Sequence record: PZ379177.1
Strand: one strand, 5' to 3'
Source of the DNA: a phage
DNA length: 64,000 bases
Position 1 is the stretch's first letter. Each line of letters opens with the position of its first letter. Positions 3,606-45,490 of this stretch are shown in pieces. The position numbers and the translations under genes are program-made. Below the pieces are notes generated by a model that had not been told where the DNA came from, did no database searches, and saw only the letters and a list, made by a program, of their open reading frames with translations.

Positions 3606-3638
3606 ATTATAATCTATAAGGAGTCTATAAGCAATATT

Positions 3639-8202: not shown

Positions 8203-8735
8203 CAGAACATCCCCTTGATACCATTCATCACCTTTGTAGCGACGCCAGTGACGCTGGCAGAAGTTTCTTTTATGTATGCAATGCCGCGCTCTATTACTGT
8301 TGAGTCGCCTGCCTGCGCTGTTTGAATAGACACATCCTGCTGTGTTAATATCTCATGGAAGACCAATTGTATGGGCTGAGATGTTATATTGTCAGCGTCC
8401 TGGCTGAAGTTGTTATTTTGCAGCACCATACGTTCGAATATTAGACCACGGGAATTAATTGTGTATATAGTCGACCTGTTTTGCAACATCTTAGCTATTG
8501 CATCTGATGCGCTTTTCGTCTGAGCTATCACGGTGACAGTGAGTATTCGCGGCATCTTTACTCTGCCATCGACAATATAGCTGCCGTCTTCCCTTTGGTT
8601 TTTGAATATCTTCGCTTGGAGTCTTATTTTAACGTTAACAATCGCCCAACCAAGCGTTGACACTTCCCCAAGGTTGAAGCTTCTTATTGTGAAGCTTCTG
8701 TTGGAAAGACTATATGACAATAAATCGATAGCCAT
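8202..8735 (-). CDS. Hypothetical tail protein
   Basis: 177-aa ORF; start and stop overlap with neighbours. Confidence 0.45.
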   Translation of the reverse strand: MAIDLLSYSLSNRSFTIRSFNLGEVSTLGWAIVNVKIRLQAKIFKNQREDGSYIVDGRVKMPRILTVTVIAQTKSASDAIAKMLQNRSTIYTINSRGLIFERMVLQNNNFSQDADNITSQPIQLVFHEILTQQDVSIQTAQAGDSTVIERGIAYIKETSASVTGVATKVMNGIKGMF

Positions 8736-9232
8736 TAAATTGACCCCAATATGCTCTGCACCACGCCTTTTGCAATTTGCGATGTGCTCTGTGCGCCGCC
8801 GTAGCTGGCAAACACGAATGTGTATCTGTTTGTCTTACGACGACCGGACTGCTCAATGGAGTCGCCAAGCGGACCGCTGATGATGGTCCCGTTCGAAAAC
8901 GCCACTCTGCCGCCATCAGGATATGTAATAAGCATTGATGTGACATCCTGGATAGGAAGCCACTTGAATCCGCCTTTACGAGCGGAAAGCAAAAGCTTTA
9001 GGTTTATGTCATCTTCAGTGTTTGGGATCACCGCAATGGATACGCGAACGACGGCGGCCTTGTCATAAATACAAATGCCGCCGTCATAAGTAAGTTGATA
9101 GCCTACTGATTCAACTTCCTCAATAATTAGCGAATCCTGGTCATCAGACAAAGAACTGATATTCAGCCCAACAGGAAAAGATTGGAGAGCGACAATTCTA
9201 ATGCTTGTGCCAAATCCACTAATATTGACCAT
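8735..9232 (-). CDS. Tail tube-like protein, paralog of 10183-10650
   Basis: 165 aa. N-terminus MVNISGFGTSIRIVALQSFPVGLNISSLSDDQD matches MINVSGFGASIRLVASNTFPNGVTLSDFADDAD of the 155-aa ORF. Confidence 0.5.
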   Translation of the reverse strand: MVNISGFGTSIRIVALQSFPVGLNISSLSDDQDSLIIEEVESVGYQLTYDGGICIYDKAAVVRVSIAVIPNTEDDINLKLLLSARKGGFKWLPIQDVTSMLITYPDGGRVAFSNGTIISGPLGDSIEQSGRRKTNRYTFVFASYGGAQSTSQIAKGVVQSILGSI

Positions 9233-9234
9233 GT

Positions 9235-9501
9235 TTACTCCGCAGATGCAGATTTAACTGCTGCAAGAATTTCATCCTTATAAGAAAGACCTTTGATGTC
9301 AATCTCATGTTCCTTTGCATAAGCCTTCAATTCAGAGACGCTCATTGAATCAAAATCAACTTTCGATTCCACTTCCTTCTCTTCAACCTGTTCTTTCTTC
9401 TCCGCAACAGGGTTTGAAGTCTTTTTGAATAATTCCGATGCGTCTTCAAATTTTTCGCCAAATTTCATGACGCCATTAGCAAAATGAATTACTTGTGCCA
9501 T
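9235..9501 (-). CDS. Hypothetical protein
   Basis: 88-aa acidic ORF in the tail string. Confidence 0.45.
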   Translation of the reverse strand: MAQVIHFANGVMKFGEKFEDASELFKKTSNPVAEKKEQVEEKEVESKVDFDSMSVSELKAYAKEHEIDIKGLSYKDEILAAVKSASAE

Positions 9502-10697: not shown

Positions 10698-12236
10698 TTA
10701 GATAAGAACGTCACGACCTTCAACGCGACGCACAGCATCATCTTTAGAGTAGATTAGCGTGTATGTTGCATAGTATTCGGTGCGCCCATCGGAAGTGGTT
10801 TCAGTATCAAAATCTACAGTCAGCCAGTAACCGATAGTTTCAACCTGCCGCCAAGCAGTGTTGTCACCGGAAGTTTGCGTGATGTATTGTTTCTGAATCT
10901 CAGTCAGCGCCTTGCCAACAGAGATGGTGCCGTTCACTTTTGCGTTATCCACAGCAACCTGAATCATGGCTTGCACAGTCGCCTTCCCTTCTTCGTTAGC
11001 AGGGACGCGACCAAGATTCAAGAACATGCTGAACAGCTGAGATGTAATAGCAGACTTGAGCCACATTTCGTTGGCATAAGTGTTCATATCAACTGCTGCT
11101 GTCGACCCGCCCATCAATACGCCGCGCTGGAAGAATGCCAAGGTTTGTCCGGCCTGCTGAGTAGCACCGATGTAGTTCGCACGGTTTTGATCAGCAGTAT
11201 CTGCGCGAGAGTCAGTTGAAACAGTCACGTTGCGAGTATCAAACTGATAATACATGTAGTTTTGAGTCGCATTCACAGTATTATAGTTTGTTGCCGCGAG
11301 GATTTCAGCAGGTGCTTGGTCGATGTAATCGTTGGCAAGGTTAGTTGCGCGAATCATCATGCCAACGCCTGAGTACCCTTTCAGAGCGGTGTAGTATGAC
11401 CCGATATTAGCGAACGAAGTCGAGAATAAATACATGTACATATTATTCTGCGAATGAGTCCACGCTGCCACAGCGGTAATTTCTTCCAGAGTTCGGTCAG
11501 CCCCAGCAAAAAGGAATGAGCCAAAGTTGTTGGAGATTTCCACAGATGCCGCGATGGCTTCTACCGGACTTGAAACGCCCTGGCCTGCAACGGTTACGGT
11601 GCCAGTGGTGGTCCAACCCAATGCTTGAGACGGGTCGGTCGGTTGGCCTGTGACGTTGATAGACAGGTTGCCTGCACCAGCGGTCGACGGCGCTGCTTCC
11701 AGTGTAAACTGCTGAGTATTAGCATTCCAATACACTTCTGCATCAGCAAGTGCAGGCACCGACGTGCCACCAGCTGATGCAAATTTAGTATTGATTGCCG
11801 TTTCCAGAAGTTCAGCCACATTTGCCAGACTTGTTGCCGCTGAAAGGTTAATTGCGTCAGTCAGGTAGTCTGTACCATCATAAGTAATGCTTAAGATAGC
11901 GCCAGTAAATGCTTGAAAAGTAGCAAGCACTTTAGGCTCAGTATCACCGATGACCATTGCTGGAATCGCAGTTGAAACAATGCGCGAGAAGCTGATTGAA
12001 TCAGGTGAGTTAATTTGCTTGCTGATGAATCCAAAATATAATGCTGCGCGCTTATATTCTTCGGAAGAATAACCGAAATATGATCCAACAGCATCAGCCG
12101 TTGAAAATTCTGCTACAATGCCAGGCGGCAGAACTGTATTAGAAGTCATGACGCGAAGAGACAGTTTGCGAACTGCAACAGCCGCGCCTGCTCCGACCCC
12201 TGATACAATTTTAATATAACGAGATTGACTGATCAC
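10698..12236 (-). CDS. Putative tail sheath or major tail protein
   Basis: 512-aa ORF between head-tail connector-sized genes and the tube-like gene. Assignment by size and order only. Confidence 0.5.
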   Translation of the reverse strand: MISQSRYIKIVSGVGAGAAVAVRKLSLRVMTSNTVLPPGIVAEFSTADAVGSYFGYSSEEYKRAALYFGFISKQINSPDSISFSRIVSTAIPAMVIGDTEPKVLATFQAFTGAILSITYDGTDYLTDAINLSAATSLANVAELLETAINTKFASAGGTSVPALADAEVYWNANTQQFTLEAAPSTAGAGNLSINVTGQPTDPSQALGWTTTGTVTVAGQGVSSPVEAIAASVEISNNFGSFLFAGADRTLEEITAVAAWTHSQNNMYMYLFSTSFANIGSYYTALKGYSGVGMMIRATNLANDYIDQAPAEILAATNYNTVNATQNYMYYQFDTRNVTVSTDSRADTADQNRANYIGATQQAGQTLAFFQRGVLMGGSTAAVDMNTYANEMWLKSAITSQLFSMFLNLGRVPANEEGKATVQAMIQVAVDNAKVNGTISVGKALTEIQKQYITQTSGDNTAWRQVETIGYWLTVDFDTETTSDGRTEYYATYTLIYSKDDAVRRVEGRDVLI

Positions 12237-20290: not shown

Positions 20291-22666
20291 TCAACCTTGC
20301 TTCGGTGAATTAGTAGGATTATTGAGTGCTCCGTATGCTTGAGAGCAATCACCCTTCAACCACTCCTTGAATGAGTTCACATCTAATTCGTGGATTGAGT
20401 CGAATCCGTTCCAACCGTTACCAAATGATGCTTGATAAGCTTCTTTCGCTTCTTCTGCTGAATCGAATCCAAGCATACACTTGTGTTCATCAAACTCGCC
20501 AGAGTAGTTATCGTTTTGGTTCACGATAAAGACTTTCGGCGACTTCAGATTTGGACCCACAAAGCAGTCGACTTCATCACCGTCTGCGCCCTTGGTGCCC
20601 TTGATGAATCCGTAGTGGTGCGGCATCTTCACGGCCCATTCACCGTCAAGGCTGTTTCCTCTACGAATGCTGTTTCGCGGATTCTCAATGCCAAGAATCA
20701 TTCCGTGCAACTTCATCTTAGGTAATGATGCTGCGTCCATTTTACCCACGTTGTGGCGTAAGTTGACGACGTGTCCTTTAACGCTTGGAAGGGTAGACGG
20801 TTGCACCGACCGTGAATCTTTTTGAGGGTCAAAATCCACATCCTGACCTTCTTTCAGGTAGTAATCCGCAATACCCTCCAGCCCTTCTTTCAACTGCGTT
20901 AGGACATCAACCTGATGGCTTGATTCATCACCGGTATCGTCCATGTTGATTTCGACAGGCGCTTTGTCAGGGTTTTCCGCCAACTCACCACGCGCAGCAC
21001 CCTCTGGCATAATACCTGTTTCGCTATAGAACTGGCCGCCCATCTTAACGACATCAGCTTTCGCCTGTTCAATATCGGCCTTACCTTGCAGGACTTCACC
21101 AGCAGACTTGCCAAGCAATGCCATATTCTCTGGAGACATCCCTGGGGTTTCTTCTGCTGCGTCTTCCGGCAGACGGTTGTAGCCGCTGTTTTTGTCGTCT
21201 TTGATGCGGTCGCGCTCTTCATCAGGAGAAATGACGCCAGCATCAATAAGAGTTTTGCCAGTGTTGGCTCGCTTATCATTGATTTCTGCAAGTTGAGTAG
21301 CAGTAAGTGAGCCAACTGGTTCCCATGCAACCTTAACATCGACATCCACCCCTTCTGATTTGAGAAGGATTTTGTAATGGCGGTCGAGAATTTTTGTCAG
21401 GTCATGCTGCTGGCACGTTTCCAACTCTTCGTGATAGCTGACCATCTCGAATTCACCAGTGGCGTTAAAGCCTTTTGGCGAAGTCCCAAGCAGTTTGGTC
21501 GACGGAACTTTTGCGATTGCGGCCACAAGCTGGTACTGGTTCATGATGATGCTGTCGAAGTCTGACAAGTTGATGTCAAACTGGTCCATCTCTTCTTTTT
21601 GGCCAAGCACTTTGACTGCATAGTTGTCGCGGTACTTGATCCACATCATCAGACGTTCTGCAAAAGACCGCTCATTGGCAATAGCCTTGTCAACGTCGGT
21701 CCGCAGCGTCGTTGTACGCTTGGACATCGCCAGCAATGGCGCTTCGTTGGCGGTACGTTCAGCGGCATAGATGCGTTCATAAATCTGCTGAGTCAGAGGG
21801 ATGCCGCCGTAAATATAAGTCGGCTTGAGAATATCAGCTGGCTCATCGTTGCGCAAGATTATGAGGTGGCTGCGATGATAACGTTGTCCGCTGATTACCC
21901 AATATTCTGGGTCATAGAAGTGCTGTGATGCAGGGTCTGCCGTGTTTTCAGACGTCAGAAACGGCATCATCCAATAAGGGTCAACCTGAATGATTCCCTT
22001 ATAAGACCCCTTTGTCACACCATCAATGTTAAAAGGCTTGCTGTAATATTCTGGGTCATCGCTACGCACATCAAATATGATGACGCGGATACCAAAAATA
22101 TTTTTGAATCGTTCGGCTTCAACTAAGTGCTCTTTGATATTAAATTCTTTATCAATTTGCTTTAGGCGTTCGCTTGCCTGTACTGACAATTCTGACTCAG
22201 AACTGGATTTGACTTCCCAACCTTTACGGACCGCATCGCGGCCTACCATGGAACACGCCTTGTTCACCAGCCAATGCTGTGCGATGATGGCACAAGCTTG
22301 ATAGCCGATGAATGACTGTGACAGATACCAGTTTTGAAGTTGAATAGGTACTGTGTATGGGTTGACTTGCCCTTCTGAACTGATGTTCTTTAAGGCATTA
22401 TCCATAACCTTTTTGGATACTGTTGCGGAATCGACTGAACGACCTTTTATGATTGCAACACCATCGCCATTAATATCAGGCTCATATAAAGGGAAGTCAT
22501 CAACCGTTTTAAAGGTCGGTCGATTGCTTTCAGTCTTTTCCCAGCGTTGACCGCTGCCGCGCCTTTCAAGGCGTTCAAACGGTGCCAATGGGTCGCCTGG
22601 CGGCATCTCCGCTGGTTCGGCTTCTGGTTGCGTCTTCTCCCAGAGTTTTATGCCAAGAATTTTCAT
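20291..22666 (-). CDS. Portal protein with C-terminal inorganic-pyrophosphatase-like domain
   Basis: Large ORF between terminase and the Mu-F-like gene. Track start is TTG at 22699; ATG at 22666 (MKILGIKLW...) with AGGTGG RBS preferred. C-terminal ~150 aa carries MPHHYGFIKGTKGADGDEVDCFVG, which resembles the pyrophosphatase core [24 protein letters not shown]. Confidence 0.65.
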   Translation of the reverse strand: MKILGIKLWEKTQPEAEPAEMPPGDPLAPFERLERRGSGQRWEKTESNRPTFKTVDDFPLYEPDINGDGVAIIKGRSVDSATVSKKVMDNALKNISSEGQVNPYTVPIQLQNWYLSQSFIGYQACAIIAQHWLVNKACSMVGRDAVRKGWEVKSSSESELSVQASERLKQIDKEFNIKEHLVEAERFKNIFGIRVIIFDVRSDDPEYYSKPFNIDGVTKGSYKGIIQVDPYWMMPFLTSENTADPASQHFYDPEYWVISGQRYHRSHLIILRNDEPADILKPTYIYGGIPLTQQIYERIYAAERTANEAPLLAMSKRTTTLRTDVDKAIANERSFAERLMMWIKYRDNYAVKVLGQKEEMDQFDINLSDFDSIIMNQYQLVAAIAKVPSTKLLGTSPKGFNATGEFEMVSYHEELETCQQHDLTKILDRHYKILLKSEGVDVDVKVAWEPVGSLTATQLAEINDKRANTGKTLIDAGVISPDEERDRIKDDKNSGYNRLPEDAAEETPGMSPENMALLGKSAGEVLQGKADIEQAKADVVKMGGQFYSETGIMPEGAARGELAENPDKAPVEINMDDTGDESSHQVDVLTQLKEGLEGIADYYLKEGQDVDFDPQKDSRSVQPSTLPSVKGHVVNLRHNVGKMDAASLPKMKLHGMILGIENPRNSIRRGNSLDGEWAVKMPHHYGFIKGTKGADGDEVDCFVGPNLKSPKVFIVNQNDNYSGEFDEHKCMLGFDSAEEAKEAYQASFGNGWNGFDSIHELDVNSFKEWLKGDCSQAYGALNNPTNSPKQG

Positions 22667-22828
22667 TGTTAACGCCACCTGACAGTGAAAGGGAATCAAT
22701 CTATATTATAAATATTCATGTGTTTGTAAGCAAATGATATGTATGGTGATCATAAATAGTTCATAAAATATTTTGCTTTTGTATCATTTTGAGTTATATT
22801 TTAGTTAACTAAACGAAAGGAGATTGAA

Positions 22829-23245
22829 ATGAGCACAACAATTGTATTTGTCGTCCTACACAACGGCGAAGTCGTTAACGTATGCGAATATGAAGAAATG
22901 GCAAAGGCCACTGCTGCGAGATACGAAGGTGCTACTATTGACCCGTGGATTTTAGATGCGCGCAGCGTCTTGCAGGCGACTTTAGATGAGTGGTTGTTGG
23001 GTCGCAAGGTCTATCCAGTAGACAACATCGACTCAATTCAAGGCGAAACAGTATACTTTGAAGATGAATGCGTTCGCGGCATCGGCAAATTTATGGGATT
23101 ATGTCCATCTTCATCCAAAAATAAATTTTATCGTATTCAAGTTGAAGAAAACGATATGTTTGACAAAGTCACGCGCTCGATTGTTCCTGGCGGCGGCACT
23201 CCAATCTTTATGGCAGAATCAGACATCAAGGGGATTATCAAATGA
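22829..23245 (+). CDS. Hypothetical protein (opposite-strand insert)
   Basis: 138-aa ORF with strong RBS (AAAGGAGATTGAAATG), convergent with terminase. Confidence 0.55.
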   Translation: MSTTIVFVVLHNGEVVNVCEYEEMAKATAARYEGATIDPWILDARSVLQATLDEWLLGRKVYPVDNIDSIQGETVYFEDECVRGIGKFMGLCPSSSKNKFYRIQVEENDMFDKVTRSIVPGGGTPIFMAESDIKGIIK

Positions 23246-23481
23246 GAACTTTAACCGAACTCGATGTTTTGAAAGATGTTGCAGCCGCGCTGGGCGTTGA
23301 AGTCTCCGAAAAGTCGACACTGGGTGCGTTGCGTCGCGATTTACTCGAAGCCGTCGACCGCAACGATTTTGATCGTAAGTGTTTGCAAAAGAAGATTCGA
23401 CAGGCAGTAAGGGCGGGTAAGCGATTCCGTGCCAGGTCGTTTGCCGCAAGAAAACTCGACCTTCAGCACGGAATGCTTTAA
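23242..23481 (+). CDS. Hypothetical basic protein
   Basis: 79-aa ORF overlapping the upstream stop (ATGA); Arg/Lys-rich C-terminus. Confidence 0.5.
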   Translation: MRTLTELDVLKDVAAALGVEVSEKSTLGALRRDLLEAVDRNDFDRKCLQKKIRQAVRAGKRFRARSFAARKLDLQHGML

Positions 23482-23484
23482 TTG

Positions 23485-24945
23485 TCAAAGGTTAGAGAAG
23501 AAGCCGGATGCTGCAACAATTGGTTTCATCAACGCCATGATTGCTGCGTCCGCTTTGTTAGGCGATTTGACTCCACGCTTTGCCATATCCTTTTTCGATT
23601 CAACTTTAAACTTACCAAGCACAGACGTGTCTTTGCGCGGCGCTGACATCTCAAAAAGAAATGTCTCAATTTCTTCCGCAGACCAAGCAGGAATCCCAAG
23701 TTCTGGAATGCCGTCTGTGTCGATGGAAATCAGCTCATCAGTCGGGTATACGGCCTGCCCTGTTGCATACTCATATGTCTTCCTGAATCGTTCGGCAATC
23801 TCAGTCCATTTTTGCGCTTTTATGTTTGCGAAATGGTCTTTATTGAGTATTTCAACGTGTGGTAACTCAAGGAAGACGTCATCAGGATCATCAACAGCAC
23901 CTTGCGCGTTGAACGCATTAAATTCGATTCTTGGGAATGTTGGATTTTCATGGATTGCATACTCATTAAGCTCATCAAATTTTGAACCAGCAAATGCACC
24001 AACACCGATGGCGTCATAGGTAATTGATGCGCCGAATGTTAATGCATCTTTCCAAACTCCGCTTGCGGACTTAAGCAATTCATCTTCCAGACCTTCCCAT
24101 GTCTTGATGCCGCGCAATACGTTGCCCGTGACAAATGCTGTGGCGTTTAAGTCGTCGCCGTCGTCTGCCACGTCAAAGCCTATGCGGTTAGACCCTGACA
24201 AGCTCCATCCCAGCGTAGGGTGTTTGTGTAGGTTTAGCGCGGCCTTGACGAATGCACGGTTTATGACAGACTTGTCGCCGCCTGTCTTCGGTACTCCGCC
24301 ATAAACGTGTTCTGCCTTTTTCGGGTCGCGCTCATACATGCCAGCAATAACGTCCAGCATTGTTTGCGACAAGAATGGATTGTCCTGCCAGTTAATCTTC
24401 TTAACGATGGCGTTCTTCGGCGGTCGCATGACAAAGTTCTGGTAGACGAAATCAGCCTCTTCATCAGGGTTAAATATGATCCATATTTCGGACCCTTCCT
24501 TACGAATTGTCGGCTCAATAATGTCCCACTGCTCTTCAGTCAGCGCGTGCGCTTCCTCAAGCCAAAGAACATCAACGCCTTCTGTTGATTTGATTTCGTC
24601 AACGTTGCGTGCAATACCGTAAAATAAAAATTCAGATTTTGTTCTTTTGTGTTCAATAGAGTTCTTTAATAAGTTGAACTCGTCTTTAAAATCAGAAATC
24701 TCTATTTTGTCTTTTAATAGCGTATATACTGATTCAGAAATCTTGTTCTGGAATTGTCGGACGCAAAGGAATTTTAATTTAAAGTTTGCCGCCAAATAAA
24801 TAGCAAAACCAGCGGCATCATGCGATTTGGAAGATGCACGACCGCCGTATATTACTTTGTATCGCGCTTTCGTCTTCCAGACTTCTCTTAAAGCAGGATT
24901 CAACTGGTACATGACTTTCCAATTATGTGTTAATATTTTATTCAT
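23485..24945 (-). CDS. terL: Terminase large subunit
   Basis: 486 aa. N-terminal Walker A-like VIYGGRASSKSHD, Walker B-like VLWLEEAH, C-terminal acidic nuclease-type region GFDVADDGDD. Adjacent to portal. Confidence 0.9.
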   Translation of the reverse strand: MNKILTHNWKVMYQLNPALREVWKTKARYKVIYGGRASSKSHDAAGFAIYLAANFKLKFLCVRQFQNKISESVYTLLKDKIEISDFKDEFNLLKNSIEHKRTKSEFLFYGIARNVDEIKSTEGVDVLWLEEAHALTEEQWDIIEPTIRKEGSEIWIIFNPDEEADFVYQNFVMRPPKNAIVKKINWQDNPFLSQTMLDVIAGMYERDPKKAEHVYGGVPKTGGDKSVINRAFVKAALNLHKHPTLGWSLSGSNRIGFDVADDGDDLNATAFVTGNVLRGIKTWEGLEDELLKSASGVWKDALTFGASITYDAIGVGAFAGSKFDELNEYAIHENPTFPRIEFNAFNAQGAVDDPDDVFLELPHVEILNKDHFANIKAQKWTEIAERFRKTYEYATGQAVYPTDELISIDTDGIPELGIPAWSAEEIETFLFEMSAPRKDTSVLGKFKVESKKDMAKRGVKSPNKADAAIMALMKPIVAASGFFSNL

Positions 24946-25063
24946 ATTATAGTTTGCTTGCGACAGCTATATCAAGTAAAATTATGATTCCAGCTTAGTA
25001 TTGGATAAAGGGTGATCTTTTCGGCCAGATTCTTTCTGGCCATTTTTTTATCAGGAGTAAATC

Positions 25064-25294
25064 ATGGCCCTAGTAAATATTCAACTCACTCCATCTTACA
25101 CTTCCGTTCTTTCTGTTGCTGAAAACGTATCAGGCGCACTTATTCAAGTTCGCGGCGGTGCCGCAGAGATCTGTTTCGAAGAAAAAGCCGATGACAAGTT
25201 GATCGGAATAGCAGTTGTTGGCACGGTCACAATCCCGCCAGGCGTTGAGATTTTCGCGAAAGGAAGCGGCACATTAGTCGTGTCTTCTCACTAA
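25064..25294 (+). CDS. Hypothetical protein
   Basis: 76-aa ORF with RBS CAGGAGTAAATCATG. Confidence 0.5.
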   Translation: MALVNIQLTPSYTSVLSVAENVSGALIQVRGGAAEICFEEKADDKLIGIAVVGTVTIPPGVEIFAKGSGTLVVSSH

Positions 25295-25383
25295 TCATTT
25301 GCCATGGACGGCATAAATTCACAAAAAGTTTGCCTTTCTGAAACTCTGCATTATAATCATATTAACTCAAAACCGGAGGTAAT

Positions 25384-25599
25384 ATGAAACTAATCGACCG
25401 CGCCATCAAAGTCATTGATAATCACTCCACCGCGCTTGCTTTCGTGATGGGATTTTGTTTCACTGCTGCGTTTGGCGACGTTCACACATTCAAGTCTGTC
25501 ATCTTGTGCTGGTCCATTTGGTCACTTATTTCTCTGGTTTTGATTCTTCCGATGACATGGCTTGTTCTTACTTGTCTGGAATCTCAAGGTGAAGACTGA
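25384..25599 (+). CDS. Small membrane protein (holin-like candidate)
   Basis: 71 aa, two predicted hydrophobic helices; RBS CCGGAGGTAATATG. Confidence 0.5.
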   Translation: MKLIDRAIKVIDNHSTALAFVMGFCFTAAFGDVHTFKSVILCWSIWSLISLVLILPMTWLVLTCLESQGED

Positions 25600-33125: not shown

Positions 33126-33614
33126 CTAGTGGCGGGAGAATTGCTCACCTTCTTTGGCCGCCTCTCCAAAATCCTTGTAGAAATCGTCCATGGAACGGCC
33201 CATTTTACTATTGCCGTTTTCATCAATCATCGTGATGCCGTAGATGATATTCAGTTCACGAATAGCATTAAGTTTGGCTGACGCCGCGACTTCTGGATCA
33301 CGCACAAGCTTGACCAAATTGTGAATTGCACCTTTTACGCTCCACAAATCCTTGAGTGGCATCTCTTCCATACGCTTTTTGAAGCGCATCTTGTAGTATG
33401 GATTGCGTTGCGCGCAAAGGATTCGCTGGCCAGTGTAGTTATCCGTTGCAACTTCCATTCCAAATACTAGTGCAAAAGCTGCGCGCATGTCATGGCCCTG
33501 AATAACAAGGTCAATGAACTCATCGAATAAAGCCTGATTGTGCTCTGCAAATCGCGGGTCTTCAAAGTCTTCAGGCATCGCTACATAATCTTGACTCATA
33601 GTGCAAAATCCCAT
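33126..33614 (-). CDS. Hypothetical protein, possible helix-turn-helix DNA-binding protein
   Basis: 162-aa ORF whose start codon lies within an iteron copy (reverse complement TTTGCACTATG). A small-terminase-like role is speculative. Confidence 0.45.
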   Translation of the reverse strand: MGFCTMSQDYVAMPEDFEDPRFAEHNQALFDEFIDLVIQGHDMRAAFALVFGMEVATDNYTGQRILCAQRNPYYKMRFKKRMEEMPLKDLWSVKGAIHNLVKLVRDPEVAASAKLNAIRELNIIYGITMIDENGNSKMGRSMDDFYKDFGEAAKEGEQFSRH

Positions 33615-36387: not shown

Positions 36388-36782
36388 TTGACCTTCTCCA
36401 ATTGGAATCTCGCTTCTGGAAAGCCTGCGACAAACATGTCACGGCCCTCGACATCACGCTTCACGAACCAACGCATCCCGTTGACGACCGTGAAGACAAT
36501 TTGCCTTCCATCAATAATAAGTCCTTTTGCCTCATAAAGCAAATAAGTCTGCCCGACTTTGAAGCTTAACATATCCTTGCTTGTGCTGGTGCACTTAAGC
36601 CGCCACTGGGTGAGATTGGATTCGCTTGCCTCGATGTCAACAACCTTACCGCGCAGCAGCGATGTGCGCTGAAGCTCTTGCATTTGCTCGTCGAACGTTA
36701 GCTCACGGCCTTCTTGCTCTTCCATTATTCCTCCACGACGCGATGATAGACATTCTTGCGCCGCTTTGCCTTGTACAGACAA
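36384..36782 (-). CDS. Hypothetical early protein
   Basis: 132-aa ORF. Confidence 0.5.
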   Translation of the reverse strand: MSVQGKAAQECLSSRRGGIMEEQEGRELTFDEQMQELQRTSLLRGKVVDIEASESNLTQWRLKCTSTSKDMLSFKVGQTYLLYEAKGLIIDGRQIVFTVVNGMRWFVKRDVEGRDMFVAGFPEARFQLEKVK

Positions 36783-37465: not shown

Positions 37466-37824
37466 AGCTCACCCTCTTTAAAAACAAAGCCGCTGATAAC
37501 AGATTGATAGTAGTTCACGCCGCGCACCTCTACAACCTTGCAGCGATGGGCCTGGCCCTTATGTTCTATCCACCAGACTTCCATATCAGGCAAGTTGTTG
37601 CGACGCGTCAACCAGCCGTGAAACAGCTTGTATGTTTCGCCGACCTTAAAAGGTTTCAGCGTACCGTAAGAATCAACCTTGAATGCGCAGACAACATCTT
37701 TGCTGTCTTTGTGCACCGCGTCATGAAATAATCCGCTTCTGCCAAACCTTTCGTCGTAACTCATAATCATTTCTCCTTTGCTTGATGAACTAAGTATAAT
37801 ACAGACAAATAAAAAGGCAAGCAT
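37462..37824 (-). CDS. Hypothetical early protein
   Basis: 120-aa ORF; true start may be internal (MIMSYDERF...). Confidence 0.45.
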   Translation of the reverse strand: MLAFLFVCIILSSSSKGEMIMSYDERFGRSGLFHDAVHKDSKDVVCAFKVDSYGTLKPFKVGETYKLFHGWLTRRNNLPDMEVWWIEHKGQAHRCKVVEVRGVNYYQSVISGFVFKEGEL

Positions 37825-37842
37825 TTAGCTCACCTTTTTGAA

Positions 37843-39021: not shown

Positions 39022-39106
39022 AATTCACCTCGCTTGTTTGTCTTGATGAAAAGAGTATAAGTATTGATAAAAGAAAAGGCAAGCATTTAGCTCACCTTTT
39101 TGATAT

Positions 39107-44181: not shown

Positions 44182-44317
44182 TTAATCCTCCTGATACGGC
44201 TTTGTTATATTGTTGCATGGATATATCCTTTCAGGGTGCGGTAAATAAACGCCAGATTTCTGGCGTTGTATATTAATATAGTAAAACTCAATTTAAAGCA
44301 ATATAACTGGTGAACTA

Positions 44318-45432: not shown

Positions 45433-45490
45433 GAATCACCTCTGCTTCAGTTCATAAAATGATTATAGTTGCTATGAAAATAAAAGCAAA

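What the first reader, a model, noticed from the sequence alone, without database searches (positions are those of the whole stretch)
22700..23485. Opposite-strand two-gene insert between portal and terminase
Two plus-strand ORFs (138 and 79 aa) with good RBS and an ATGA overlap are wedged, convergent with terminase, inside an otherwise uniformly leftward morphogenesis operon. An AT-rich promoter-like region lies upstream. This moron-like arrangement often marks accessory cargo such as toxin-antitoxin pairs, superinfection exclusion or anti-defence genes. The second protein is strongly basic.
Basis: inference. Interest (0 to 1): 0.5.

Follow-up and report, generated by a model that had tools for sequence, protein, structure and literature searches.

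The report
Shrunken early-gene cassette splitting terminase from portal
The two rightward genes between terminase and portal of this E. coli Wifcevirus phage are real and conserved, but they are not a recent insert: they are what remains of an old, separately transcribed, non-structural gene cassette shared by PB1-like phages, and their function is still unknown.

Summary
ORF1 (22829-23245, 138 aa, acidic) and ORF2 (23242-23481, 79 aa, basic) are plus-strand genes coupled by an ATGA overlap. Both are under strong purifying selection (dN/dS 0.04-0.09). They are convergent with TerL, with a 3-nt gap and no terminator.

The "insert/moron" reading is not supported. The window is a Wifcevirus. The pair occurs in all 29 Wifcevirus records, has median GC, and is absent from E. 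coli genomes and plasmids.

Seven more distant lineages carry the same opposite-strand cassette between portal and TerL. It starts with an ORF1 homologue and includes an ORF2 homologue. A lipoprotein trypsin-like protease usually sits between them, and a DUF2786 gene usually comes last. Wifcevirus has lost the protease and DUF2786.

ORF1 is a divergent homologue of Pseudomonas phage 14-1 gp17 (phrog_5124). That is the first gene of the Pbunavirus "early region", which also lies between TerL and portal.

A sigma-70-type promoter for the pair lies back-to-back with the portal promoter and is conserved across lineages. Neither protein was found in published virion proteomes.

Predicted folds are an SH3/Tudor-like barrel for ORF1 and a SAP-like helical bundle with an Arg-rich tail for ORF2. 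The likely role is intracellular nucleic-acid or protein binding. The function is untested. Interest is modest.

The parts
22705..22733 (-). Promoter-like element for the portal operon: TTGCTT-17-TATAAT. The -10 hexamer ends 38 nt before the portal ATG at 22666.
   Evidence: An equivalent TTG(C/A)TT-17/18-TATAAT is found at the same relative position in L009, L023, L024, L025, Kyle, L010 and L026. The whole 162-bp spacer has only 3 variable sites among 7 Wifcevirus genomes.
22773..22800 (+). Promoter-like element for ORF1-ORF2: TTGCTT-16-TATATT. The -10 hexamer ends 28 nt before the ORF1 ATG.
   Evidence: It is conserved in L009 although ORF1 there is only 53% identical. In L025 the equivalent is TTGACT-16-TATAAT (11 of 12), and Kyle has a similar element; TTGACT-16-TATACT in L010 and L026 is my own reading of the sequences printed (the script itself reported another register). 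The motif TTGCTT-N15-18-TATWWT occurs 7 times in the window against 0.26 expected.
22818..22822 (+). Shine-Dalgarno AGGAG of ORF1
   Evidence: Read. Also annotated as an RBS in phage Mansfield.
22829..23245 (+). ORF1, 138 aa, acidic (pI 4.7). A divergent homologue of Pbunavirus 14-1 gp17 / phrog_5124. Predicted N-terminal beta-beta-alpha-beta unit, a linker helix, and a C-terminal SH3/Tudor/Sm-like beta-barrel.
23242..23481 (+). ORF2, 79 aa, basic (pI 10.3). Predicted four-helix protein with an N-terminal helix-extended loop-helix (SAP-like) and an Arg/Lys-rich C-terminal half. Its start overlaps the ORF1 stop (ATGA).
23482..23484 (.). 3-nt gap between the convergent stop codons of ORF2 and TerL. 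There is no terminator on either strand.
   Evidence: In relatives the last cassette gene overlaps the TerL 3' end by 4-12 nt.
23485..24912 (-). Terminase large subunit. It is a separate transcription unit convergent with the pair. The likely start is the ATG at 24912 (475 aa, as annotated in relatives).
   Evidence: Pfam Terminase_3. Annotation in Mansfield and WFH. Its own promoter, TTGATA-18-TATAAT at 24975->24946, scores 11 of 12 and is conserved in relatives (my reading of the sequences printed).

Best explanation
ORF1 and ORF2 are the minimal remnant of an old, independently transcribed, opposite-strand cassette. In PB1-like myoviruses (Pbunavirus, Wifcevirus, Kylevirus and unnamed metagenomic lineages) this cassette separates the terminase large-subunit gene from the portal operon.

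Shown:
- Both are real, translationally coupled genes under purifying selection.
- They are read rightward from a conserved sigma-70-type promoter that lies back-to-back with the portal promoter.
- They were not detected in published virion proteomes.
- ORF1 is homologous to Pbunavirus 14-1 gp17 (phrog_5124), the first gene of the block that Pbunavirus papers call the early region.
- The nearest relatives have a lipoprotein serine protease between ORF1 and ORF2 and a DUF2786 gene after ORF2. Wifcevirus lacks both.

Inferred: the Wifcevirus lineage lost those two genes. The protease loss fits a deletion between two similar RBS/start sequences, which would have created the ATGA junction.

Inferred mechanism: both proteins act inside the infected cell, probably early. 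ORF2 would bind DNA or RNA through a SAP-like helix-loop-helix and an arginine-rich C-terminal helix. ORF1 is an acidic protein with an SH3/Tudor-like barrel and would act as a protein- or nucleic-acid-binding adaptor. Because no terminator separates the pair from TerL, their transcript must run antisense into TerL, and the TerL transcript antisense into them. This could also damp or time terminase expression.
For: Real genes: third-position variation and dN/dS of about 0-0.09, against more than 2 for the antisense ORF.

Identity of the phage: 98% to Escherichia phage ECML-117, genus Wifcevirus.

Conservation: 29 of 29 Wifcevirus records.

Same cassette elsewhere:
- Pantoea phage Kyle: gp028 (ORF1-like), gp027 protease, gp026 (ORF2-like), gp025, gp024 DUF2786.
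- L009: ORF1, Trypsin_2, ORF2, DUF2786/DUF7168, then convergent TerL.
- L010, L023, L024, L025 and L026 follow the same plan.
- ORF2 family alignment.

The window has no protease or DUF2786 homologue. Junction microhomology: AAGGGGATT..AAATG against AAAAGGATT..AAATG.

ORF1 and 14-1 gp17: hmmsearch 43.8 bits, hhalign probability 97.5%, shared phrog_5124. Both are the first gene divergent from portal.

Early-region status in Pbunavirus: 14-1 gp11 (YfiN-interacting peptide) and gp12 (RNA polymerase binder) lie in the same TerL-portal block and are described as products of the 'early genome region' (PMC8085984; gp12 also in PMC10914365).

Promoter: conserved in position in 8 lineages. The spacer has 3 of 162 variable sites, against about 13% in ORF1.

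Not virion proteins: vB_Eco4M-7_34/_35 and ECML-117 gp32/gp33 are absent from the MS tables, while neighbouring portal and minor capsid proteins are present (PMC7048862; mapping).

Folds. Charges. No terminator between the pair and TerL.
Against: - No experiment addresses the function or timing of these two genes in any Wifcevirus.
- No Pfam SAP/HeH model matches ORF2 or its relatives, and a family profile finds nothing in the PDB.
- The ORF1/gp17 link rests on about 20-44 bits plus shared position.
- 'Early' is carried over from Pbunavirus, where ORF2 has no detectable homologue.
- The TTGCTT-type promoter also precedes late genes such as portal and the baseplate spike, so the promoter says nothing about timing.
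- Absence from shotgun virion MS does not exclude a low-copy virion protein.
- The antisense effect on TerL is inferred from gene layout alone.
Confidence: 0.6

Rival explanations
1. One reading: a recently acquired moron-like insert carrying accessory cargo, such as a toxin-antitoxin pair, a superinfection-exclusion gene or an anti-defence gene.
For: Opposite strand, own promoter, small uncharacterised proteins, not in virions (PMC7048862). The Pbunavirus cassette at the same position does hold host-directed ORFans (PMC8085984), so an anti-host or anti-defence function for an old gene remains possible.
Against: Present in all 29 Wifcevirus records and in 7 further lineages at the same position. 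GC is at the genome median. No terminator of its own. No copy in E. coli genomes or plasmids. A protease gene separates the two genes in six lineages, which does not fit an obligate TA pair. No hits in PADLOC, Pfam or NCBIfam.
Confidence: 0.12
2. Packaging accessory proteins: a DNA-recognition or DNA-end-binding factor (ORF2) and a partner (ORF1) that work with TerL, TerS and portal. They could, for example, mark the packaging start or the long terminal repeats.
For: Located between TerL and portal. ORF2 is predicted to bind nucleic acid. Purified TerS of the related phage E217 showed no appreciable DNA binding in vitro (PMC9611059), which leaves room for another specificity factor. Relatives package with long direct terminal repeats, as annotated for Serratia phage MTx.
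Against: A clear homologue of E217 TerS (PDB 7UXE) exists elsewhere, at window 33126-33614 (-), E=6e-34. The pair is on the opposite strand with its own promoter. ORF2 has no detectable Pbunavirus homologue, although the packaging machinery is shared. In relatives the same cassette holds a secreted lipoprotein protease and, in Pbunavirus, host-directed early proteins. No sequence or fold similarity to any TerS.
Confidence: 0.12
3. Transcription-control pair. ORF2 would be a lambda-N-like arginine-rich RNA-binding antiterminator. ORF1 would be an RNA-polymerase-binding partner with a KOW/Tudor-like barrel. Their target would be the conserved promoter-proximal terminator at 25023-25051, opening the rightward gene block that includes a tail fibre.
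For: The ORF2 C-terminal half has 12 K/R to 1 D/E, with a conserved (K/R)x(W/F)R motif across lineages. ORF1 barrel matches include NusG and Spt5 KOW domains, and there is a sub-threshold Pfam hit to CarD_TRCF_RID (E=0.06). A promoter, short leader, strong terminator, then gene layout is conserved with different stem sequences in the window, L009, L023, L024, L025 and Kyle. It was not found in 14-1 or MTx, and no ORF2 homologue was detected among the annotated cassette proteins of either.
Against: All of this is indirect. The co-occurrence follows phylogeny (one clade). The barrel fold is generic and the Pfam hit is not significant. No boxB-like repeat was identified. The terminator element might equally be a small RNA gene or a simple attenuator.
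Confidence: 0.07
4. Not genes at all: chance ORFs on the strand opposite an unannotated leftward gene, for example the 89-aa ORF at 23219-23488 that starts in a TTGA overlap with the TerL stop.
For: A minus-strand ORF of 89 aa is open in all 7 Wifcevirus genomes compared, and it abuts the TerL stop.
Against: Substitutions fall at the third codon positions of the plus-strand frames, which are the second positions of the antisense frame. dN/dS for the antisense ORF is 2.5-7.0. Plus-strand homologues persist at 22-66% identity in distant phages.
Confidence: 0.01

Closest known systems
Pbunavirus (PB1-like) early region between TerL and portal, e.g. Pseudomonas phage 14-1 gp04-gp17
   Same: Same position and orientation: a block on the opposite strand between the TerL gene and the portal operon, starting from a spacer shared with portal and ending convergent with TerL. 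The first gene, gp17, is homologous to ORF1. Both are small non-structural ORFans. The Pbunavirus block is called the early genome region and contains gp11 (YfiN-interacting peptide) and gp12 (RNA polymerase binder) (PMC8085984, PMC10914365).
   Different: 14 genes in 14-1 against 2 here. No ORF2 homologue was detected in 14-1. Wifcevirus lacks the DUF2786 gene shared by Pbunavirus, MTx, Kyle and the metagenomic relatives. 14-1 has a 36-nt gap between the convergent stops, against 3 nt here.
Cassette of Pantoea phage Kyle (gp024-gp028) and metagenomic relatives L009, L010, L023-L026
   Same: Homologues of both ORF1 and ORF2, in the same order, at the same place, with the same divergent promoter layout.
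   Different: Those cassettes have 5-7 genes. They include a lipoprotein Trypsin_2 protease between ORF1 and ORF2 (absent in L023) and a terminal DUF2786/DUF7168 gene whose 3' end overlaps the TerL 3' end. Wifcevirus keeps only the two genes.
SAP / HeH (helix-extended loop-helix) DNA-binding domains (Siz1, PIAS1, FAN1 SAP; Rho N-terminal domain)
Phage morons (lambdoid-type independently transcribed inserts)
   Same: Own promoter, opposite orientation to the surrounding late genes, non-structural products.
   Different: Not sporadic, no own terminator, typical base composition, and ancestral to several genera (and the synteny calls).

Membership tests
phrog_5124 / Pbunavirus 14-1 gp17 family (for ORF1) | Significant profile similarity over most of the length | tested here: met
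   hhalign of the ORF1 family against 14-1 gp17: probability 97.5%, E=7.2e-12, 121 columns. hmmsearch 43.8 bits. phrog_5124 is the only PHROG hit for ORF1 (E=9e-4) and the best for P0011 (1.8e-4) and P0012 (2.1e-4); gp17 itself scores 1.6e-88.
phrog_5124 / Pbunavirus 14-1 gp17 family (for ORF1) | Same genomic position: first gene transcribed divergently from the portal gene | tested here: met
   Window. 14-1 gp17 at 8694-9095 (-) next to portal gp18 at 9275 (+). The same holds in Kyle, L009, L010 and L023-L026.
phrog_5124 / Pbunavirus 14-1 gp17 family (for ORF1) | Similar size and charge | tested here: met
   Full-length members are 129-148 aa with pI 4.5-5.1; one 81-aa member covering only the C-terminal barrel (P0021) has pI 5.9. 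gp17 is 133 aa with pI 4.7.
PB1-like opposite-strand early cassette | Block of genes on the opposite strand between TerL and portal, convergent with TerL | tested here: met
   Burkholderia phage Maja lacks it.
PB1-like opposite-strand early cassette | Transcribed early in infection | not testable with these tools
   Only stated for Pbunavirus in the literature (PMC8085984). No transcript data exist for Wifcevirus. The supplementary TSS tables of PMC10914365 are not held.
PB1-like opposite-strand early cassette | Contains the shared DUF2786/DUF7168 gene | tested here: not met
   Present in Ab27 ORF28, MTx gp022, Kyle gp024, L009, L010 and L023-L025. tblastn finds none in the 64-kb window.
Type II toxin-antitoxin pair | Homology of either partner to a known toxin or antitoxin family | tested here: not met
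   No Pfam, PADLOC or NCBIfam match.
Type II toxin-antitoxin pair | The two genes stay adjacent wherever they occur | tested here: not met
   A protease gene lies between them in Kyle, L009, L010, L024, L025 and L026, and a 45-aa ORF in L023.
Type II toxin-antitoxin pair | One product is toxic and the other neutralises it | not testable with these tools
   Needs expression experiments.
Moron | Own promoter and own terminator | tested here: not met
   Promoter present. No terminator between the ORF2 stop and TerL on either strand.
Moron | Sporadic presence among close relatives and/or atypical composition | tested here: not met
   29 of 29 Wifcevirus records. GC 46.4%, the 49.9th percentile of windows of the same size.
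Small terminase (TerS) | Sequence or fold similarity to a known TerS | tested here: not met
SAP/HeH domain (for ORF2) | Match to the SAP/HeH/Rho_N sequence profiles | tested here: not met
   No such Pfam hit for ORF2 or any of the other 8 sequences in alignment A9 at E<=1.
SAP/HeH domain (for ORF2) | Helix-extended loop-helix fold superimposable on solved SAP domains | tested here: inconclusive
SAP/HeH domain (for ORF2) | Binds DNA | not testable with these tools
   Needs EMSA or similar.

The most novel reading that the evidence does not exclude
ORF2, through its arginine-rich tail, and ORF1, through its KOW/Tudor-like barrel, form a previously undescribed phage antitermination or transcription-timing module. 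It would act on the conserved promoter-proximal terminator upstream of the rightward block (25023-25051). In addition or instead, the terminator-less convergent arrangement with TerL would be a conserved antisense or collision device that delays terminase expression. The arrangement is kept even after Wifcevirus lost the original last gene of the cassette.
Probability: 0.07. Interest if true: 0.6.

Novelty: new member of a known kind. Interest (0 to 1): 0.3.

Why it matters
Wifcevirus and Pbunavirus phages are used or considered for therapy and biocontrol. Wifcevirus is also reported to replicate unusually fast (PMC11990801). Yet the small genes between their terminase and portal genes are annotated only as hypothetical.

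This work shows three things. The pair is the reduced core of a cassette shared across genera. ORF1 is homologous to a Pbunavirus early-region gene. The pair has a conserved promoter. Together these give a defined two-gene target for deletion and interaction studies, and they link E. coli work to the better-studied Pseudomonas system.

It also corrects the picture of a single leftward morphogenesis operon: TerL is a stand-alone unit facing the cassette head-on. None of this changes current understanding of phage biology unless the regulatory reading proves true.

Tried and rejected
1. Missing small terminase. TerL starts its own unit with no TerS upstream, so I tested whether the pair could be TerS. 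Rejected: window 33126-33614 (-) matches E217 TerS (7UXE) at E=6e-34, and neither ORF resembles any TerS.

2. Antisense 89-aa ORF as the real gene. Rejected by dN/dS.

3. P0008, an apparent 156-aa ORF1 variant, is a frameshifted copy matching the +1 frame. It is not informative.

4. Sequence searches for annotated relatives. Pfam, PHROGs, NCBIfam, PADLOC and PDB gave nothing apart from phrog_5124.
   - The 5.8-billion-protein search found only Wifcevirus-like and Kyle-like proteins.
   - The exhaustive profile search found 7 small clusters plus 5 doubtful long or fragmentary hits, which I did not follow up.
   - IMG/VR and metagenome scans returned only close relatives. One alignment was too diverse to scan.

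5. Fold searches. Only generic small-barrel and SAP-like matches. BFVD returned the family itself plus non-significant hits to T4-type MotB and 'transcriptional regulator' entries (E>=0.03, TM about 0.3). AFDB50 was unavailable.

6. Terminator between the pair and TerL. None found. I first read the strong plus-strand terminator at 25023-25051 as the end of the cassette transcript. It has its own conserved promoter about 35 nt upstream, so it is more likely a separate element.

7. Rfam on 22500-25400: no match.

8. Papers. The E217 terminase paper (PMC10026623) and the supplementary TSS tables for phage 14-1 are not held. The 14-1 RNA-seq preprint gives no per-gene phage timing.
Full report
**What the window is.** The 6 kb around the finding is 98% identical to Escherichia phage ECML-117 and 91-98% identical to 28 other Wifcevirus records. 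Wifcevirus is a genus of roughly 66-72-kb E. coli/Shigella myoviruses distantly related to Pseudomonas Pbunavirus (PB1-like) phages (PMC11990801).

Portal is at 20291-22666 (-). It matches Phage_portal_3 and carries a C-terminal InPase domain. TerL is at 23485-24912/24945 (-) and matches Terminase_3.

**The observation.**
- ORF1 is 22829-23245 (+, 138 aa). ORF2 is 23242-23481 (+, 79 aa). They overlap in ATGA, and each has a Shine-Dalgarno sequence.
- The ORF2 and TerL stop codons are 3 nt apart.
- The 162-bp spacer between portal and ORF1 is 27% GC.
- ORF2 has pI 10.3, and ORF1 has pI 4.7.
- Among seven Wifcevirus genomes, variable sites fall mostly at plus-strand third codon positions: 43 of 53 in ORF1 and 22 of 27 in ORF2.
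- dN/dS is 0.07-0.09 for ORF1 and about 0-0.06 for ORF2. A fully overlapping 89-aa minus-strand ORF gives dN/dS of 2.5-7.0.

**Is it an insert?** No.
- Both genes are in all 29 Wifcevirus records at 93-100% amino-acid identity.
- Their GC content is at the genome median.
- Nothing similar exists in 5,426 complete E. coli genomes or in PLSDB plasmids.

The same tblastn searches gave weak hits for both proteins next to each other in Pantoea phage Kyle (genus Kylevirus). There, five opposite-strand genes lie between TerL and portal: gp028 (ORF1-like), gp027 (protease), gp026 (ORF2-like), gp025 and gp024.

Profile searches then found ORF1 homologues at 20-56% identity on metagenomic contigs. Every one sits in the same place. 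It is the first gene after an AT-rich spacer divergent from portal. A Trypsin_2 protease with a lipoprotein signal peptide usually follows, then an ORF2 homologue of 71-79 aa, then one to three small genes. Last comes a DUF2786/DUF7168 gene whose 3' end overlaps the 3' end of TerL by 4-12 nt.

The 64-kb window has no protease or DUF2786 homologue.

The closest outgroup, L009 (ORF1 53% and ORF2 66% identical), and the more distant Kyle, L010, L024, L025 and L026 all carry the protease between ORF1 and ORF2. All of these except L026, a 2-kb contig that ends inside ORF2, also carry the DUF2786 gene. The simplest history is therefore loss in Wifcevirus.

In L009 the ORF1/protease junction (AAGGGGATTGTGAAATGA) and the protease/ORF2 junction (AAAAGGATTACACAAATG) resemble each other. 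A deletion between them would give exactly the Wifcevirus ATGA junction. This step is an inference.

**Link to Pbunavirus.** Serratia phage MTx has 7 opposite-strand genes in this gap, Pbunavirus Ab27 has at least 9, and 14-1 has 14. Burkholderia phage Maja has none.

An HMM of the ORF1 family hits 14-1 gp17 at 43.8 bits, and hhalign gives 97.5% probability. gp17 is the first gene divergent from portal in 14-1. Independently, the only PHROG that ORF1 touches, and the best one for P0011 and P0012, is phrog_5124, which is the gp17 family. ORF1 is thus a divergent member of a gene conserved at this position across the PB1-like group.

No ORF2 homologue was detected in 14-1 or MTx.

In the Pbunavirus literature this block is the 'early genome region'. 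14-1 gp11 (YfiN-interacting peptide) and gp12 (RNA polymerase binder and transcription inhibitor) both map inside it (PMC8085984, PMC10914365; coordinates).

**Transcription signals.** The portal-ORF1 spacer has only 3 variable positions of 162 among Wifcevirus genomes. That makes it more conserved than the flanking coding sequence.

It contains two back-to-back sigma-70-type elements:
- TTGCTT-17-TATAAT toward portal (22733->22705).
- TTGCTT-16-TATATT toward ORF1 (22773-22800).

Both are retained in L009. Equivalents lie at the same distance from the start codons in most of the eight lineages; in L010 and L026 I read the ORF1-side element from the printed sequences, and the ORF1-side match is weak in L024 and not evident in L023. 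The motif TTGCTT-N15-18-TATWWT occurs 7 times in the window against 0.26 expected. It precedes both late genes and replication genes, so it gives no timing information.

TerL has its own promoter, TTGATA-18-TATAAT (11 of 12), which is conserved in relatives (my reading of the sequences printed). The 'leftward operon' is therefore at least two units.

No intrinsic terminator lies between the pair and TerL on either strand. The two units must transcribe into each other.

**Not virion proteins.** Shotgun MS of vB_Eco4M-7 and ECML-117 particles detected portal, minor capsid protein and many others. It did not detect vB_Eco4M-7_34/_35 or ECML-117 gp32/gp33 (PMC7048862, tables 1-2; gene mapping). 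The E217 virion structure paper does not mention gp17 or gp18, the numbers just before its portal gp19.

**What the proteins look like.**
- The ORF2 N-terminal half is acidic. Its C-terminal half has 12 K/R to 1 D/E, with a conserved (K/R)x(W/F)R motif and an invariant Cys.
- Neither family matches Pfam, NCBIfam, PADLOC or PDB sequences.

**Interpretation.** The best-supported reading is that the pair is the conserved core of an ancestral, independently transcribed, non-structural cassette that Wifcevirus has reduced to two genes.

By analogy with Pbunavirus, and from the folds, the products most likely act inside the infected cell. ORF2 would be a nucleic-acid binder and ORF1 a protein- or nucleic-acid-binding adaptor. 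The head-on, terminator-less arrangement with TerL may also affect terminase expression. These mechanistic steps are inference.

Rivals considered:
- Recent moron or toxin-antitoxin pair. Synteny, composition and non-adjacency in relatives argue against it.
- Packaging accessory. Position argues for it. Strand, a separate TerS at 33126-33614 and the cassette content in relatives argue against it.
- Antitermination pair acting on the conserved promoter-proximal terminator at 25023-25051. The element and ORF2 co-occur in the same six lineages, but the evidence is thin.
- Artefact. Excluded.

**Verdict.** Both genes are annotated only as hypothetical proteins in the records I inspected, so this is a new member of a known kind of phage region, and interest is modest. 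The value lies in the cross-genus homology, the reconstruction of cassette reduction, and a clearly defined two-gene target for experiments.

Noticed in passing
window 24946-25063: Between TerL and the next rightward gene there are overlapping back-to-back promoters. One is P_TerL, TTGATA-18-TATAAT, on the minus strand. The other is a plus-strand TTGCTT-17-TAAAAT. About 35 nt after the plus-strand promoter comes a strong intrinsic terminator (GGCCAGA-ttctt-TCTGGCC plus T7, 25023-25051), and then the RBS and ATG at 25064. The same promoter, short leader, terminator layout occurs in L009, L023, L024, L025 and Kyle with different stem sequences, but was not found in 14-1 or MTx. It could be an attenuator or a small RNA of about 60 nt. 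There is no Rfam match.
   Followed up: partly
window 33126-33614 (-): Homologue of the E217 small terminase (PDB 7UXE, E=6e-34), about 8 kb from TerL and separated from it by genes on the other strand. No terminase small subunit is annotated in the stretches of Wifcevirus records that I inspected.
   Followed up: partly
window 20291-22666 (-), portal residues 660-782: The portal protein carries a C-terminal InPase (inorganic-pyrophosphatase-like, PF18823) domain, E=3e-46. The same fusion is seen in L004, L009 and L025.
   Followed up: no
window 25064-25294 (+): This 76-aa ORF lies in a roughly 260-bp stretch that is absent from WFH, WFC and related genomes. Yet its product (vB_Eco4M-7_32 / ECML-117 gp30, 7.7 kDa) is detected by virion MS, with a high score in vB_Eco4M-7 (PMC7048862).
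   Followed up: partly
window 3606-3634, 22705-22733, 22773-22802, 36514-36542, 44275-44301, 45462-45489 (and 12015-12042): The promoter-like motif TTGCTT-N15-18-TATWWT occurs 7 times against 0.26 expected, mostly just upstream of gene starts on the coding strand. The copy at 44301->44275 is followed directly by a hairpin with a T-run (44265->44250).
   Followed up: partly
window 37813-37837 and 39075-39099 (-): Two identical terminator-like hairpins (AAAGGTGAGCTAAATGCTTGCCTTT followed by a T-run) lie 1.26 kb apart in the block of small leftward genes.
   Followed up: no
L005 (Kyle gp027), L009 6411-7019, L010 1857-2417, L024, L025, L026: Relatives encode a Trypsin_2-type serine protease between the ORF1 and ORF2 homologues. 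In the three that I translated (Kyle, L009, L010) it has a lipoprotein signal peptide with an L-A-G-C lipobox. A secreted phage protease in an early-type cassette is unusual. Its target is unknown.
   Followed up: no
L004 10001-10471 (protein P0008): A 156-aa ORF1 variant on a metagenomic Wifcevirus contig is a frameshifted copy. It switches to the +1 frame within the A/T-rich stretch encoding SKNKFY, near residue 98 of ORF1. This is probably an assembly error.
   Followed up: yes
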